NCBI GenBank assembly: GCA_001938485.1
Contig: MQRK01208805.1
Coordinates: forward strand, 1 to 50,580
DNA from: Girardia tigrina
Lineage: Eukaryota
Length of the DNA stretch: 50,580 nucleotides
Reading direction: 5' to 3'
The position numbers are program-made. Shown here in pieces: positions 30,001-50,541 of the stretch (position 1 is the first letter of the stretch; every line of letters starts with the position of its first letter).

Positions 30001-33000
30001 TTCTTTTCTAGGTCGGCGTTCACTTTTTTCTAAAAAAATATTAATTGTTCGCTTCCTACATTTTGTTTAGGTAACTGACCAATAAGATTGCAGTATTTCA
30101 AAATATGAAAGTAATTGATAACAAAGACGGCCGAATTATTACCAAAAAAAGAAGTGTATTTTACAGTAAAATAAATCAAGAACCTTTAAAAAATGAGTTT
30201 CAATGCATTTTATGCCCCAAAACATGTATTATCCTACTACCTTAATCATCGGGTAAATCCGCTAGTTTATGTATATGTATTTATATAGTTAACACGTCTT
30301 TCATTTATAAATGTTTGCGTATAAGTATGTGTGATTCACTTTTTTAAGTTTTCCTTTACTTTTTTGGCTAAATTCGATTGAAATTGGAAATATAACCTTT
30401 CGATAAAATTAACCTTCTGTTGAATGTTATATCAATGTAAAGATGAATTATTATAAAAAAATTTATATTTTTAAATAAATATTGATATTTATTTTAAAAA
30501 AAGGATTTAAAATATTTTTTATAAAATCTTCAGATATTTGTTTAAATATTGTTATTATTAAATAAATGATTATTATTTAATAAATAAAAATAAAATAATA
30601 TTAATGAATAAATTTTTGAAAATGACTTCTGTTAATTCCTACAATCAATATGGATCGAACTAAGGAATCTGAAGGAAAGACATTGGAAAATCTCTGTATC
30701 GAATTATTATTGAGTTTTAAGTACTATGAACCTACATTATTTGGGTAATGGTAGACTAAAGCAGATTATTTTGATAAAAGATTTTAAATACAGCTGTCCA
30801 TTATTTCCGGTTGACATTGGTTACATACAAAATTTAAAGTTATTTATAAAAAAACATTTCAGAATACTTATATTCATATTACATACGATAATTTTGAACA
30901 CAGTTTTTCAGAATACGTATATTTATAATTTTATTGAAACAGAATTCCTTAAATATCTCAGTTTAAGTATAAAACAAATAGGTCATTTTCAAAATAAATG
31001 ACGAATTGTGTTTCAGAAAATCTTGAGTCGGTTGAAATTGTTAAAAAATATTTTAATTGAGATTGGAACAATCAATGTCATCCTAAAATCTGTTAGATGT
31101 TTACGTGAAATATGGTTTATATTTTGGACAATATAGTTCGGCGGATCAACCGTCATCTTCAAGTTACTGATTTAATATATAAATGCGAAAATGATGATTG
31201 TGTAATCGATTGCATGAAATCATGCTAATAGTAATTCTCAATAAGCTGCTTGAGACTGCCGAGTGAACATTTCAGATGCATCGTGACCTAATTAACAATG
31301 CTTCACATGACACTCTCTCTCAAGAACTATCGAAATGCTTACCCAGAATCTTGAAATTATCAATAGTAACATCAAATTTACTTTTTCCTATGTTCTGCAA
31401 TATTACTCTTACTCTCTTTTCGACCATGTTCTTGAATTCTTTTACAGAGATGATGAACAGTCTCTCCATTGTATGTTGCATCGCACCCATTTTATCTATA
31501 TTCATAAACAATATCATAACAAAATGTTAAAGGTGTAATATTATTCAACATATTTTAAATGTTATGAGATCGTGATACAATTTTTAAATTTAATTCATTG
31601 TTTAACAATGTATTTTTAAAGTTTTTAAATCCTTCAAAATAAGATACAAGGTATATTAACAAAATGATATTTCTATTTCTTTCTCAAACCATTAGAAGAA
31701 TCAAATTTCTGATTTTTCGATCTATTTTTCAAAAATATCTTATCCACTGTTTCATTTATATTATTTTCATGAAAAGATTTAGAATAACTATTATGATTTA
31801 ACAGAGAACTTAGTTGCAGGTCATTTAGCCATAAAATCAATGTTCAATCGGCAGTCTCAACCAGCTTGTTGAGAATTTTCGATCAGCGCGATTTCATGCA
31901 ATCGATTACGCAAACATTATTTTGACATTTATATATATTGAATATTTAACCAGTGACCTGAAAATGACGGTTGATCCATTGAAATATGTTTTCGTTAAAT
32001 GTATTTTAAAATGGATGAATTTTGTTGTTAATAAACAATTTTTGTCCGGAGTGAAGATTATGAATTAGATAATTAGTTATTTTTATTTATATATAGAATT
32101 AATTTATAGAAAATAATTTATATCAAAATTTTGATAAATTTAGGTTTTTAATTTTTTAAGAAAAAATTTCATAAATTGACTTCATTATCGTAAAGAAAAC
32201 TCTAATTTTCGAATAATCTCGTCATTGGGCCTGGGATTATGGTGAATCCCATTTGGATTGAGCCAACCGGCCCACAAGGCGACACGATAGTTCCAATACG
32301 AGATACTACGTATCTGAGTATTAACGAGATTTGTATTCCATATATTTTGGGAAGATTTTTAATGATTTTATCTGTCCTTTGTAGCAAACTGTTGTTAAAA
32401 TTGTCACTTCGAATAATAATAAAATAAACTAAAATCAATTTTCTATCTAATTAGTATTTCTTTAATGTTACAAGATTAAATAAGGAGAATTTCCTCATTC
32501 TTTTCTATTTAGTCACCCGAGAAGCACCAACACAATGCTCAGATCTCTGATTTCTATATTAAATCTGTTGATTTAACCCAAATAAAGTCAAAGTCGTTGG
32601 ATGGCGATTCGAGTAAAAGGGTTCAATCTTCAAACAAAGCCCAAATAACAACAGTAATTGGTTCTTATTCCAGTAATTATGAAACGGTCCACAGTACAAA
32701 TCTTATTCAGACACCTAAAGGTGAAAAACACCTGATAGTTTTAGTGCATTTATTTTTAACGTTTAGGGAATAAACTTGAAATCGGGTCTTCTTACACACG
32801 TCTTGCAGCATCATCAAACTCATCAACCACTTCCAGACCCTCGTCCTGCAACAGTTTACCCGGTCGAATAAATAATTCTTTAAATAATTTTGACCAATTA
32901 AGTTTCAAAATGGGTAAGAAGAACAAATCAAAAACCAAAAAGTTTTTCAGTTTATCAAAATCCAAGAAAAAACATGAATTAGACAAAAAAGAGATTGATG

Positions 33001-33389
33001 AATTAGCTGAGGCTCATGTAAGATCATCGGTGCCCGAAACTGCCGAGCCGATCATAACAATAAATAGACAAGAGTCTCGGAAGAATAATTTTTTCTTCAA
33101 ACAAAACCTTCCTTTTAAAAGTCATGCCATTGGTGAGAAATTACCAAGCGATAGCAAAGGGAAAAAGAAAAATGATATTCCATCTTTTCTCCATTCAATT
33201 TTAAGAACTTCGAATCATAAACTGAAACCCAATAATTCTTTTCCACATAACTGTACAAATGATAATCAAGTAATTATCTTTTTATTATTACTCATTTGTT
33301 GTATCATGTAATGAATTTCAGAAGAAGGAGAAATCAAAGAAAATGGAGACGGAATTTTCATTTTATGATGACATAGAAGTATGCATGAG

Positions 33390-48800: not shown

Positions 48801-50541
48801 AAATCTAAATGATATTTTCATGATGTGATGCATGGGAACAGAGTAGAAACAGTATGATTGCTAAGTTTGAATATTAAAATGTCGGTTACAGTCTTCCAGA
48901 TTGTTCCACCTGAGATGTTTTCACAGCTCCGTCTTATTTTTCGAAAATAGATGTTTTTAAAAACACCAATATGACTTTTAACATTTTTATTATAACAACA
49001 AGTTTGATTGTCCTCAGGACAATCTTTGTTAAAAGTTTCGTACGATTGCATCAGTCTATTAATCAATGACTTTAATCTTATTATCTGAGCAAATGGAGAA
49101 CTAAATAAATTATTAAAATATTTACTCAAAAGTTATTGGATAAAAATTAAAATGATTAAAAATTAAAATTAGGAATAAATATAAACATTACATATTTTCA
49201 GATAATTAGAATTAAAATATTAATCAGCCATCTGGGTAGAAGTGACACAATTCCAAATCAACATACAACATTCGAACAAAATATCAAACTTTCAAAATAT
49301 TCCTCACAGCTTTGAAGAAGACTATGAGAGATTTTCTTCAGTGCCTTTAATTTTGACGTTAAAAATGATTTCCACGTACATGAACTTAACACGAGTCTGC
49401 TGGCCGTGAAACAAAAGTTTGTTCTTACGTTCGTTTCTACAACTATTTCACTGTTAAGAAATTGTATGGGACTTGGTAATTTACTGGTTCCTCTGCTCTT
49501 TGTAGAGCCACAACAATCATTTGATCTTTAAGGCTGTTAAAATAGTATTGTACCGTTTTTTTACGATTCACACGGCGTTGATATACGTAGTTCCAAAAGG
49601 TCGCTTGTTTCAATGACTTTCATATTTATATTAAGTATCGTTTCGGCAATCGTCGGCTCCAGATTCTGCCTGTGAAACACGAATTTCTGTTTCTAGGAAG
49701 TTTGTAGGTGATATTCTACCATTTTACACCCATAATAGTTTTGAATTTCAATAGAAAAAGTAGAAAAAGAATGACATTTATAAATTCTAAAAAATGAAAT
49801 TGTTCTTATAAAAAATAAAATAATTGAATTTTACTCTAAACATATAACACCGATTTTGAACAATATCTTTATTTCCATCTTTCTTTCAATGTTTTATATA
49901 TTAAAGCCCTATAGCAAATGTTGTCGTTTATTATTTGTTTGGTTCTTTTAAATTATAAGATTTATAATTAATGTAAAAGTTTAAAATAATAATTTTAATG
50001 AATAATGTTCCTAGATTTCCAAAGAATTTCTGGAGTACTGCGCTCATGCTTCGTGTTATAAGCATTTTGAGAAGGCCATCAAAATGGTAATCGGTACACA
50101 GTGTACCAAAAGAAGCCTGGCCTACTTACATTACCTTACCAGACGTATCGTGAGGCATATCGGCGATCCCAGCGACAACGAAAACGAAAAAATAAAAAAG
50201 GTTTTGAAACATGCGGATCGGTTTTATAAGGATTATTATCACGATCATATTAAAAATGTTCATAAAACTTTGGTAATTAGATTTTTAATTACAAATTTTA
50301 TTGATTATTAATGAAATCAGTATCCTCTTCTGACACTCGAGACTAACTTTAATAAATATATGTTATTCTTTAGAATAAGGAATAAGATAGGAATTATATT
50401 AGCAACATGACACAAATTGAGGCTTTCTTACTGTTGAATGAATGTTTAATAATAATAAGTTTATGAAAGGGCTATACATAAATCAATGCTTCTTCCATGG
50501 CGATCATAAATGGAATCTCTTTATCGGTAAAATAATATGCT

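What the first reader, a model, noticed from the sequence alone, without database searches (positions are those of the whole stretch)
32513..50410. Hidden 8-exon gene encoding a highly divergent Bcl-2-family (Bcl-G/BCL2L14-like) protein
Seen: exons 32513-32720, 32767-33269, 33322-33378, 40505-40591, 40641-40733, 45970-46290, 50015-50272 and 50321-50410 join by GT-AG introns into one ~538-codon frame with no stop. Known: Bcl-G has a long low-complexity N-terminus, a BH3 helix (IVELLKYSGDQL) and a C-terminal core without a TM anchor. Inference: INAIIKKTSD is a BH3-like helix, and Y..F...I..VIG....+.LA.L..LT+.......V...A.+F..DYY..HI matches Bcl-2 helices 4-7. The hallmark residues are replaced (GD>SD, no NWGR, no WI..GGW), and a ~80-aa Cys/acidic insert follows BH3. 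This could be a non-canonical or repurposed Bcl-2-fold protein.
[Added by the scan's program, not by the reader: the finding's places include an assembly gap (unread letters, written N; its length is only estimated) at 33513 to 33742. Whether the letters on both sides are continuous or in frame is not known: test that first.]
Basis: partly seen in the sequence, partly recalled or inferred. Interest (0 to 1): 0.75.

Follow-up and report, generated by a model that had tools for sequence, protein, structure and literature searches.

The report
Real orphan gene, Bcl-2 link unproven
This AT-rich, animal-like stretch holds a real spliced gene for a tiny unnamed protein family whose only confidently folded part is a four-helix end domain; sequence tests do not support the proposed kinship with Bcl-2 cell-death proteins, and predicted structure only hints at it.

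Summary
Exons 4-7 are confirmed. Exon 2 is one of the two longest N-free open frames in the window, and exon 1 is plausible (2% by chance). Exons 3 and 8 are no better than chance. The join across the 7.1-kb intron that holds the assembly gap rests only on matching phase.

Bcl-2 membership is not supported. There is no Bcl-2 hit in Pfam or PDB sequence searches at E<=10. The BH3-like stretch is not conserved in the family, and no intron follows a Trp codon. AlphaFold2 gives a confident four-helix domain for exon 7 (pLDDT 91.8). Foldseek finds nothing at E<=0.001, but Bcl-xL chains have the highest query TM-scores among the listed rows (0.64-0.65, E about 1.7). They recur for the relative's model.

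Only two credible relatives exist among 1.84 billion cluster representatives. Best reading: a lineage-restricted, mostly disordered protein with a conserved basic helical binding domain.

The parts
32513..32720 (+). Candidate exon 1 (69 complete codons plus 1 base; no in-frame ATG; the acceptor AG is part of an in-frame TAG, so the frame cannot run further upstream)
   Evidence: Open frame with AG/GT bounds. G+C 0.365 against 0.26 upstream. A comparable extension arises by chance in 2.0% of decoys. No relative found.
32767..33269 (+). Exon 2 (Ser/Asn/Lys-rich, low complexity; first in-frame ATG of the model at 32910)
   Evidence: Lies in the 183-codon stop-free stretch 32760-33308, one of the 2 longest N-free stretches in the window. 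Composition. No relatives among proteins of 91-293 aa. Pfam gives only noise.
33322..33378 (+). Candidate exon 3 (19 codons), not independently supported
   Evidence: AG/GT bounds and open frame. 23.6% of decoys do as well. Likeness of its end to the start of P0001 is not significant (294 of 2000 shuffles reach it).
33513..33742 (.). Assembly gap (230 N) inside proposed intron 3
   Evidence: About 44 nt ending at 33512 are the exact reverse complement of about 33976-34019 on the far side, and (AT)n lies next to both arms.
40505..40591 (+). Exon 4 (acidic, 29 codons)
   Evidence: tblastn match of P0001 residues 2-36 to 40493-40594, 43% identity.
40641..40733 (+). Exon 5 (31 codons; holds the conserved RRxSCP stretch)
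   Evidence: P0001 residues 36-60 match 40641-40730 at 57% identity, in a different frame from exon 4, so the 49-nt intron is needed.
41530..42342 (-). Mariner/Mos1-type transposase remnant inside intron 5 (a passenger, not part of the gene)
   Evidence: Pfam Transposase_1 at 68.8 bits (cut-off 24) and HTH_48 at 53.9 bits (cut-off 24.1), found on separate stop-free pieces.
45970..46290 (+).
   Evidence: P0001 residues 64-165 match 45976-46293 at 35% identity, E 9.9e-15. There is no gap against P0001 across the exon 5/6 junction. Strong GTGAGT donor. Its stop-free stretch of 133 codons is among the 5 longest in the window.
50015..50272 (+). Exon 7 (86 codons): conserved C-terminal four-helix domain
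   Evidence: phmmer finds P0001 at E 4.9e-27 (55% identity) and P0002 at 1.6e-5. tblastn gives 54% identity, E 1.8e-31. AlphaFold2 pLDDT 91.8, pTM 0.81, helices at residues 3-10, 15-25, 32-49 and 58-85.
50273..50410 (+). Unresolved 3' end. Either a 48-nt intron (50273-50320) plus exon 8 (50321-50410, stop TGA), or read-through of 12 codons to TAA at 50309-50311.
   Evidence: Exon 8 against the relatives' tails: 1272 and 852 of 2000 shuffles do as well. Read-through peptide: 335 and 41 of 2000. The P0001 tail has no tblastn match in the window.

Best explanation
The region holds a genuine, intron-containing protein-coding gene of an AT-rich (30% G+C) animal-like genome. I do not take the contig for human. 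The gene belongs to a tiny, unnamed, lineage-restricted family.

Shown: exons 4-7 form one coding sequence. Its product has an acidic stretch, a conserved RRxSCP stretch, a Cys/His-bearing middle part, and a conserved, basic, roughly 85-residue C-terminal domain that is predicted with confidence as four helices.

Probable but not shown (about even odds): the Ser/Asn/Lys-rich exons 1-3, which lie 7 kb upstream across the assembly gap, are the N-terminal half of the same protein.

Inferred mechanism: a non-enzymatic adaptor or regulator. The helical end domain would be the folded binding module. Its third helix keeps a basic Y-L-x-R-[RK]-I-V core in all three members. The long, disordered, charge-patterned remainder would carry regulatory sites. 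The RRxSCP stretch fits a basophilic-kinase/14-3-3-type pattern; that pattern is recalled, not tested. The conserved CxC, H-x3-C and CxxC positions may bind a metal.

It is not demonstrably a Bcl-2 family member.
For: - Splice sites and frames check out.
Junctions 4/5 and 5/6 are gapless; junction 6/7 differs by 2 residues.
- 50 shuffles of P0001 gave 0 HSPs below E 1e-3.
- Exons 4 and 5 lie in different frames, so the 49-nt intron is required.
- Exon G+C is 0.33-0.42 against 0.20-0.29 in most flanks.
- Family size: a phmmer search with exon 7 over 1.84 billion representatives gave 3 hits at E<=1e-3. One of them, P0003, is a triple CHAP-fragment repeat whose 35-residue likeness is counted three times, and I dropped it. 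A profile search of longer proteins returned only P0001 and P0002.
- The exon-7 domain has pLDDT 91.8 and pTM 0.81. The same four helices appear in the P0001 model, where only residues 166-248 are confident.
- There are 17 invariant columns in the 3-member domain alignment.
- Composition per exon: exons 1-4 are 68-79% polar or disorder-type residues; exon 7 has 17 K+R against 10 D+E.
- Helix 3 is the most hydrophobic helix (9, 11 and 13 of 18 residues) yet carries 3-5 Lys/Arg.
Against: - There are no expression data.
- The two relatives are unnamed environmental ('metaclust') proteins of unknown organism.
- Exons 1-3 have no relative, and nothing bridges the gap.
- Exon 8 is unsupported.
- Only 2 of the 5 AlphaFold2 models of the domain are confident (91.8 and 91.3, against 63.0, 61.4 and 51.3), on an alignment of just 3 sequences.
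- The adaptor mechanism, the phosphosite and the metal site are inference from sequence patterns. AlphaFold2 gives the middle part pLDDT below 50.
Confidence: 0.6

Rival explanations
1. The protein is an extremely divergent Bcl-2-fold protein (Bcl-G-like). Exon 7 would encode the core helices, and an exon-6 helix would act as a BH3. It would bind partners through a groove, like Bcl-2 proteins.
For: - Foldseek with the exon-7 model: 5 of 41 listed PDB rows are Bcl-xL or BCL-2-family chains, and they have the highest query TM-scores in the list (0.64-0.65; probability 0.72-0.82; 85-101 columns).
- Foldseek with the separately predicted model of the relative P0001: 10 of 44 listed rows are Bcl-xL (best E 0.73, probability 0.80, 97 columns at 4.3 A, target TM 0.46).
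- Helix 3 is the most hydrophobic helix, as a central helix should be.
- Precedent: viral Bcl-2-fold proteins have no detectable sequence identity to cellular ones (PMC7022251, passages read).
Against: - There were 0 Foldseek matches at E<=0.001 in all 3 searches. The best E overall goes to unrelated proteins (a designed zinc-induced homotetramer; a chain of the Hsp90-Cdc37-Cdk4 complex).
- Apart from one Affimer-complex row whose description names only the family, no member other than Bcl-xL is named, and the many Bcl-xL rows are copies of one structure.
- In the viral library the one named Bcl-2 homologue sits at rank 30 (query TM 0.43, probability 0.21).
- No Pfam Bcl-2 hit and no PDB sequence hit at E<=10.
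- Only four helices (86 aa) are confident, against a bundle of up to eight around a central helix. The upstream part is below pLDDT 50.
- The BH3 pattern is not conserved.
- 0 of 7 introns follow a TGG codon, and exon 7 has no Trp.
Confidence: 0.12
2. There are two neighbouring genes, or two contigs wrongly or loosely joined. Exons 1-3 would belong to one gene that ends near 33311 or inside the gap. Exons 4-7 would belong to another gene whose 5' exon lies in the gap or in 33743-40504.
For: - The gap of unknown true length sits between the two groups of exons.
- No relative covers both sides. P0001 starts at the exon-4 equivalent, and P0002 starts just before the CxC.
- Exon 3 is no better than chance.
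- Exon 2's frame has its own stop at 33309-33311 if intron 2 is not removed.
- The phase match between exon 3 and exon 4 has a 1-in-3 prior.
Against: - Exon 4 begins at an acceptor with no in-frame ATG in the 11 open codons before it.
- P0001 continues a few residues upstream of the exon-4 equivalent, so an upstream coding exon is needed.
- Exons 1-3 are the nearest coding-like sequence on the same strand, and they are in phase.
- In the introns, 150 of 159 short stop-free pieces, plus all pieces of 60 aa or more, showed no host-gene domain.
- The two gap flanks share an exact inverted repeat, which fits one local structure, though weakly.
Confidence: 0.3
3. It is a decaying or never-functional locus: a pseudogene or chance open frames, with no protein made.
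For: No expression evidence. The gene is absent from the protein collections searched: no self-hit. The locus lies in a transposon-rich, gap-ridden region.
Against: Four exons (313 codons) are intact and collinear with a relative at 35-57% identity, without a stop or frameshift. Conservation is highest in the folded domain, 54% against 35% in exon 6, as expected under selection on a fold. All splice sites are canonical.
Confidence: 0.05

Closest known systems
Bcl-xL / the Bcl-2 fold (Pfam PF00452)
   Same: All-helical. The exon-7 model superposes on about 85-99 columns of Bcl-xL chains at 3.9-4.5 A, with query TM 0.64-0.65. The third helix is the most hydrophobic.
   Different: No sequence signal at all. 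Identity in the structural alignments is 9-12%. E-values are 0.73 or worse. Only four confident helices, against up to eight packed on a central hydrophobic helix (PMC7022251). No BH motifs, no Trp in the domain, and no BH2-splitting intron.
   Same: A long, poorly structured N-terminal part followed by a helical C-terminal part. Both are outliers with no clear apoptotic role; for BCL-G this rests on the abstracts of PMC10244440 and PMC3481120 as listed.
   Different: BCL-G is defined by BH3 and BH2 motifs without BH1 (abstract of PMC10244440). Neither motif is recognisable or conserved here. No BCL-G or other Bcl-2-family chain or Pfam family came back from any search with the window's exons or their relatives.
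Viral Bcl-2-fold proteins without sequence similarity (for example poxvirus F1L, M11L and N1, as described in PMC7022251)
   Same: They set a precedent: a Bcl-2 fold can be invisible to sequence searches, so the negative sequence tests do not exclude the fold.
   Different: Those were shown by solved structures to have the whole bundle. Here the viral structure library gave no match at E<=0.001, and its one named Bcl-2 homologue ranked 30th.
Taxonomically restricted ('orphan') genes of invertebrate genomes
   Same: Very few relatives (2 credible among 1.84 billion representatives). No curated domain. Mostly low-complexity sequence with one small folded domain. Short canonical introns.
   Different: The C-terminal domain is well conserved (54% and 33-35% identity to the two relatives) and is predicted with confidence. 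That argues for an established protein, though a narrowly distributed one, rather than a young de novo gene.

Membership tests
Bcl-2 family (Bcl-2-fold proteins, PF00452) | Sequence match to the family profile, or to any solved family member | tested here: not met
   Pfam hmmscan at E<=10 on 7 of 8 exons (exon 3, 19 aa, is below the tool's minimum) and on P0001 and P0002 gave no PF00452. PDB sequence searches at E<=10 with exon 7, exon 6, the 3-member profile, P0001 and P0002 returned no Bcl-2-family chain among their 3, 2, 14, 1 and 2 hits.
Bcl-2 family (Bcl-2-fold proteins, PF00452) | Helical bundle with a central hydrophobic helix (alpha5) packed by up to eight helices (PMC7022251, Introduction passage) | tested here: inconclusive
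   Only a four-helix, 86-residue domain is predicted with confidence. In the relative's model the upstream 165 residues have pLDDT below 50. Bcl-xL gives the highest query TM among the listed rows (0.64-0.65), but E is 0.73-2.2, and there are 0 matches at E<=0.001. The joined exon 6-8 product was not folded.
Bcl-2 family (Bcl-2-fold proteins, PF00452) | BH3 motif: four hydrophobic positions and one acidic position on one helix face (PMC9171138, passage read) | tested here: not met
Across the 3 members, position 1 is hydrophobic in 3 of 3, position 2 in 3 of 3, position 3 in 0 of 3, position 4 in 1 of 3, and the acidic position is acidic in 2 of 3. The same paper says BH3 consensus patterns have little predictive value, so a 10-residue likeness carries little weight either way.
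Bcl-2 family (Bcl-2-fold proteins, PF00452) | Conserved BH2-splitting intron directly after a TGG (Trp) codon, found in almost all animal bcl-2 homologues (PMC7527217, Discussion passage) | tested here: not met
   0 of 7 proposed introns follow TGG. The candidate intron after exon 7 follows TTG (Leu), in phase 0. Exon 7 has no Trp, and the whole model has one, in exon 6.
Bcl-2 family (Bcl-2-fold proteins, PF00452) | BH3-binding groove and binding of BH3 ligands | not testable with these tools
   This needs a reliable full-domain structure or binding data.
BCL-G (BCL2L14) subfamily | BH2 plus BH3 without BH1 (abstract of PMC10244440) | tested here: not met
   No search returned BCL-G or any BH-motif family. 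The BH3 register is not conserved (see the BH3 row above). A Gly-Gly near the tail is present in 1 of 3 members only (P0002).
Tc1/mariner transposons (passenger in intron 5) | Mos1-type HTH plus DDE transposase domains | tested here: met
   HTH_48 scores 53.9 bits (cut-off 24.1) and Transposase_1 scores 68.8 bits (cut-off 24), on the minus strand within 41530-42342. The reading frame is broken, so this is a remnant.

The most novel reading that the evidence does not exclude
The conserved C-terminal domain, possibly together with the poorly modelled exon-6 helices, is a hallmark-less cellular Bcl-2-like bundle. It would be a cellular counterpart of the sequence-unrecognisable viral Bcl-2 folds, carried by a lineage-restricted protein with a Cys/His module and a long disordered arm, and possibly put to a non-apoptotic use.
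Probability: 0.12. Interest if true: 0.6.

Novelty: new member of a known kind. Interest (0 to 1): 0.3.

Why it matters
As it stands, this is a gene-annotation result. A real gene, apparently missing from the protein collections searched, defines a very small family with one confidently predicted helical domain and no curated name. Such lineage-restricted genes are common, so the interest is modest.

It would matter more if the faint Bcl-xL likeness proved real. Cellular Bcl-2-fold proteins that escape every sequence test are known mainly from viruses. A cellular example without BH motifs, and without the hallmark BH2-splitting intron, would bear on how the fold arose and what it did before apoptosis control.

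Tried and rejected
- Exon 6 searched against longer proteins: 74 candidates, none at E<=0.01.
- Exon 2 searched against proteins of 91-293 aa: 35 candidates, none.
- ESM Atlas with exon 7: only unnamed 'hypothetical' clusters, with a low recognition value of 1645. With P0001: no usable hit.
- P0003, the third hit, rejected as a relative. It is a threefold repeat of a CHAP-domain fragment. The likeness is one ungapped 35-residue stretch counted three times, and its Cys is not kept in P0001 or P0002.
- A weak CEP44 likeness of P0001 residues 63-95 (Pfam E 0.089; PDB 7pt5_A E 0.55) is not seen for the window's own exon 6. Rejected as noise.
- Likeness of the exon 3 end to the P0001 start, which would have bridged the gap: 294 of 2000 shuffles do as well.
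- Exons 1 and 2 against P0001 and P0002: not significant (548-1702 of 2000 shuffles).
- MAFFT alignments that mixed whole relatives with single exons misplaced short pieces (A1, A3, A4). Only A2 and A5 were used.
- Search for hidden exons or domains in the three long introns. Pieces of 60 aa or more, 150 of 159 pieces of 36-59 aa (the 9 overlapping exons 4-6 were left out) and 18 selected pieces at E<=1 gave only the mariner remnant and one weak C2H2 finger.
- tRNA scan and Rfam at gathering thresholds over the window: 0 and 0.

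
Full report
**Scope and rules.** I do not take this contig for human. It has 30% G+C, four introns of 46-52 nt, mariner and piggyBac remnants and a 22-nt satellite. 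The natural relative P0001, which is collinear with exons 4-7, served as a stand-in. The N runs were left as they are.

**The gap first.** The window has 7 N runs. The 230-N run at 33513-33742 lies 134 nt after the donor of exon 3 and 6.8 kb before exon 4, inside proposed intron 3 (33379-40504). A single N at 35152 lies in the same intron. No reading frame crosses the gap, so its unknown length cannot break the frame. What the gap leaves open is whether exons 1-3 and exons 4-8 are on one transcript, and whether an exon is hidden in it. About 44 nt ending at 33512 are the exact reverse complement of about 33976-34019 on the far side, with (AT)n next to both arms. So the gap interrupts a hairpin-like inverted repeat. 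That fits one local structure, but it could also be an assembly artefact, and it settles nothing. No relative spans both sides.

**The observation.** All eight exons are preceded by AG and exons 1-7 are followed by GT. Each exon is stop-free in the frame set by the running length. The sum is 1617 nt, or 538 codons plus a TGA at 50408-50410. Acceptors are T-rich and end in YAG. The donors include GTGAGT after exon 6 and GTAAGC after exon 5. Exon G+C is 0.30-0.42 for exons 1-7 against 0.20-0.29 for most flanks. Exon 8, at 0.267, is at background.

**Chance.**
- Stop-free stretches in the window average 13.3 codons (6765 N-free stretches).
- Only 2 stretches reach 183 codons, and one of them is exon 2's stretch, 32760-33308. 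Only 5 reach 133 codons, and one of them is exon 6's stretch.
- I used every AG or GT outside the gene as a decoy. A 40-60-nt GT..AG intron with at least 69 open codons upstream in the needed phase (the exon 1 case) occurs in 202 of 10290 cases (2.0%).
- At least 19 open codons downstream (exon 3) occurs in 23.6% of 11052 cases, and at least 29 (exon 8) in 14.6%.
- So exon 2 is significant on its own, exon 1 is plausible, and exons 3 and 8 are not distinguishable from chance.

**Relatives.** A phmmer search with exon 7 (86 aa) against 1.84 billion cluster representatives gave 3 proteins at E<=1e-3:
- P0001: 268 aa, E 4.9e-27, 55% identity.
- P0002: 231 aa, E 1.6e-5, 33% identity.
- P0003: 180 aa, E 3.6e-5. 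I dropped this one. It is a threefold repeat of a CHAP-domain fragment, and its score comes from one ungapped 35-residue likeness counted three times.

A profile of the three C-terminal domains (A2) searched against longer proteins returned only P0001 and P0002. The window's own protein did not come back from any search, so it is apparently not in those collections.

tblastn of P0001 against the window gives four collinear matches:
- residues 2-36 to 40493-40594 (exon 4, 43% identity);
- residues 36-60 to 40641-40730 (exon 5, 57%);
- residues 64-165 to 45976-46293 (exon 6, 35%, E 9.9e-15);
- residues 170-252 to 50024-50272 (exon 7, 54%, E 1.8e-31).

Fifty shuffles of P0001 gave a best E of 0.026. 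Junctions 4/5 and 5/6 need no gap against P0001. At junction 6/7 the window is two residues shorter than both relatives. Exons 4 and 5 are in different frames, so the 49-nt intron must be removed. Exons 4-7 are therefore one coding sequence.

**Ends of the gene.**
- P0001 runs a few residues upstream of the exon-4 equivalent. Exon 4 starts at an acceptor with no in-frame ATG in the 11 open codons before it. So an upstream coding exon must exist.
- Exons 1-3 are the nearest coding-like sequence on the same strand and are in phase. Nothing more supports the link. Exon 3's end against the P0001 start is reached by 294 of 2000 shuffles. Exon 2 has no relatives of 91-293 aa.
- Exon 1 has no in-frame ATG, and its acceptor AG is part of an in-frame TAG. 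So either a further 5' exon is missing, or translation starts at the ATG at 32910 in exon 2. The 50 open codons before that ATG argue for coding sequence upstream of it.
- At the 3' end, the tail of P0001 has no match in the window. Exon 8 does not resemble either relative's tail (1272 and 852 of 2000 shuffles do as well).
- The alternative is reading on for 12 codons to TAA at 50309-50311. It does slightly better (335 and 41 of 2000), but this is not significant after four tests.
- The 48-nt length and 0.146 G+C of the proposed last intron match the other short introns. The 3' end is open.

**Bcl-2 test by sequence.**
- Pfam at E<=10 on 7 of 8 exons (exon 3 is too short to scan) gave only noise and no PF00452. 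The same holds for P0001 and P0002.
- PDB sequence searches at E<=10 with exon 7, exon 6, the profile A2, P0001 and P0002 returned 3, 2, 14, 1 and 2 chains. None is a Bcl-2 family member.
- PMC7022251 (passages read) notes that several viral Bcl-2-fold proteins lack any sequence identity to cellular ones. These negatives therefore lower the claim but do not exclude the fold.

**Bcl-2 test by structure.**
- AlphaFold2 on exon 7 with its two relatives gives pLDDT 91.8 and pTM 0.81 for the best model. The five models score 91.8, 91.3, 63.0, 61.4 and 51.3. The model has four helices, at residues 3-10, 15-25, 32-49 and 58-85.
- The model of P0001 places the same helices at the matching positions. 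It is confident only for residues 166-248. Residues 1-165, which include the exon-6 equivalent, are below pLDDT 50.
- Foldseek against the PDB found 0 matches at E<=0.001 for either model. For exon 7 the best E (0.52) is a designed zinc-induced homotetramer.
- For exon 7, 5 of 41 listed rows are Bcl-xL or BCL-2-family chains at E 1.7-2.2 and probability 0.72-0.82. They have the highest query TM-scores in the list (0.64-0.65), at 9% identity.
- For P0001, 10 of 44 listed rows are Bcl-xL (best E 0.73, probability 0.80, 97 columns at 4.3 A).
- These rows are many copies of one protein. Apart from one Affimer-complex row whose description names only the family, no other family member is named in either list.
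- In the viral library there is again nothing at E<=0.001, and the one named Bcl-2 homologue ranks 30th (query TM 0.43).

**Further family hallmarks.**
- BH3 is defined in PMC9171138 (passages) by four hydrophobic positions and one acidic position. That paper also says consensus patterns have little predictive value.
The acidic position is acidic in 2 of 3. The motif is not conserved.
CxC and H-x3-C are shared by all three members, and CxxC by the window and P0001.
- PMC7527217 (passages) describes an intron directly after a TGG codon in BH2 as present in almost all animal bcl-2 homologues. Here 0 of 7 introns follow TGG, and exon 7 has no Trp.
- Helix 3 is the most hydrophobic helix (9, 11 and 13 of 18 residues), as a central helix would be, but it carries 3-5 Lys/Arg.

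**What it most likely is.**
- Shown: a real spliced gene of a very small family, with a conserved, basic, four-helix C-terminal domain (17 invariant columns among three members).
- Inferred: the rest is largely disordered. Exons 1-4 are 68-79% polar or disorder-type residues, with Lys-rich clusters in exon 2 and an acidic run in exon 4. AlphaFold2 is unconfident there.
- Inferred: the protein has no enzyme signature. It probably acts as an adaptor or regulator that binds a partner through the helical domain.
- The conserved RRxSCP stretch in exon 5 fits a basophilic-kinase/14-3-3-type pattern. That pattern is recalled from general knowledge and was not tested.
- The Cys/His positions may bind a metal. 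This is inference only.
- I put the Bcl-2-fold reading at about 0.12.

**Surroundings.**
- Inside the finding, the only recognisable mobile element is a mariner/Mos1 transposase remnant on the minus strand within 41530-42342, in intron 5. There is also one weak C2H2 finger open frame on the minus strand at 44257-44649.
- The virus-like traces lie outside the finding. On the plus strand within 11430-13218 there are three sub-threshold matches in integrase order: zinc-binding domain E 0.086, core E 0.0086, C-terminal SH3 E 0.014. They sit in three different frames, so there are at least two frame changes. No gag, protease, RT or LTR was recognised beside them.
- On the minus strand within 21329-21664 there is a reverse-transcriptase fragment in two pieces of one frame, separated by one stop. 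It lies next to a piggyBac transposase remnant at 21797-22248.
- I only described these traces.

**Not done or not possible.**
- There are no RNA data and no eukaryotic genome collection, so orthologous loci and substitution-rate tests were out of reach.
The genome-contig scan (prokaryotes only) was not used.
- No profile-profile comparison with a Bcl-2 alignment was possible, because no tool returns Bcl-2 sequences for this query.
- No supplementary files were consulted.
- Papers: for PMC10244440 I saw the listing abstract and find passages. For PMC7022251 I saw find passages. For PMC9171138 I saw the listing abstract and find passages. For PMC7527217 I saw the listing abstract and find passages. 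For PMC3481120 I saw the listing abstract only.
- I made no literature search for this family itself, since it has no name to search by.

Noticed in passing
window 11430-13218 (+): Retrovirus-type integrase traces in N-to-C order (zinc-binding H2C2, core, C-terminal SH3). All are below Pfam's cut-offs (E 0.086, 0.0086, 0.014). They lie in three different frames, so there are at least two frame changes. An assembly gap (11101-11199) lies just upstream. No RT, protease, gag or LTR was recognised beside them. This is probably the window's 'virus-like stretch', and it lies outside the finding.
   Followed up: partly
window 21329-22248: A reverse-transcriptase fragment on the minus strand (21329-21664; two pieces in one frame with one stop between; best E 9.3e-6). 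It lies next to a piggyBac-type transposase remnant on the plus strand (21797-22248; E 1.6e-9 and 7.3e-9, on two pieces).
   Followed up: partly
window about 18640-20300: A long tandem array with a 22-nt period (about 90% identity between neighbouring registers). It is very AT-rich with strong G over C skew, and an assembly gap at 19399-19448 interrupts it.
   Followed up: no
window 33469-33512 and 33976-34019: An exact inverted repeat of about 44 nt, with (AT)n next to each arm. It brackets the assembly gap at 33513-33742, so the gap sits in the loop of a hairpin-like structure.
   Followed up: yes
window 41530-42342 (-): A mariner/Mos1 transposase remnant inside intron 5 of the gene. HTH_48 and Transposase_1/DDE_3 match well above Pfam cut-offs. 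The frame is broken at least once.
   Followed up: partly
window 44257-44649 (-): A 131-codon open stretch, antisense within intron 5, with one weak C2H2 zinc-finger match (E 2.1e-4, below the cut-off). It lies in a stretch of raised G+C (0.37). Whether it is a nested gene or transposon debris is unknown.
   Followed up: partly
window 35600-38000 (-): A run of minus-strand open pieces in the most G+C-rich part of the window (0.40), inside intron 3. None has a Pfam match at E<=1, so its nature is unexplained.
   Followed up: partly
window 31175-31234 and 31877-31936: A 60-nt inverted repeat (83% complementary) with 642 nt between the arms, about 0.6 kb upstream of exon 1. It looks like a small foldback or MITE-type element.
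   Followed up: no
window 26557-27279 (-) and 437-781 (-): A FLYWCH zinc-finger match (E 9.5e-6, 26.1 bits against a cut-off of 23.6) at 26959-27279, beside a 125-codon open piece. A Tc1-like HTH_32 match (E 2.5e-6) lies at 437-781 next to an N run.
   Followed up: no
window 40641-40733 (exon 5) and 45970-46290 (exon 6); P0001, P0002: Conserved short features of the family. An RRxSCP stretch is shared by the window and P0001. CxC and H-x3-C are shared by all three members, and CxxC by the window and P0001. A Gly-Gly near the C-terminus occurs in P0002 only.
   Followed up: partly
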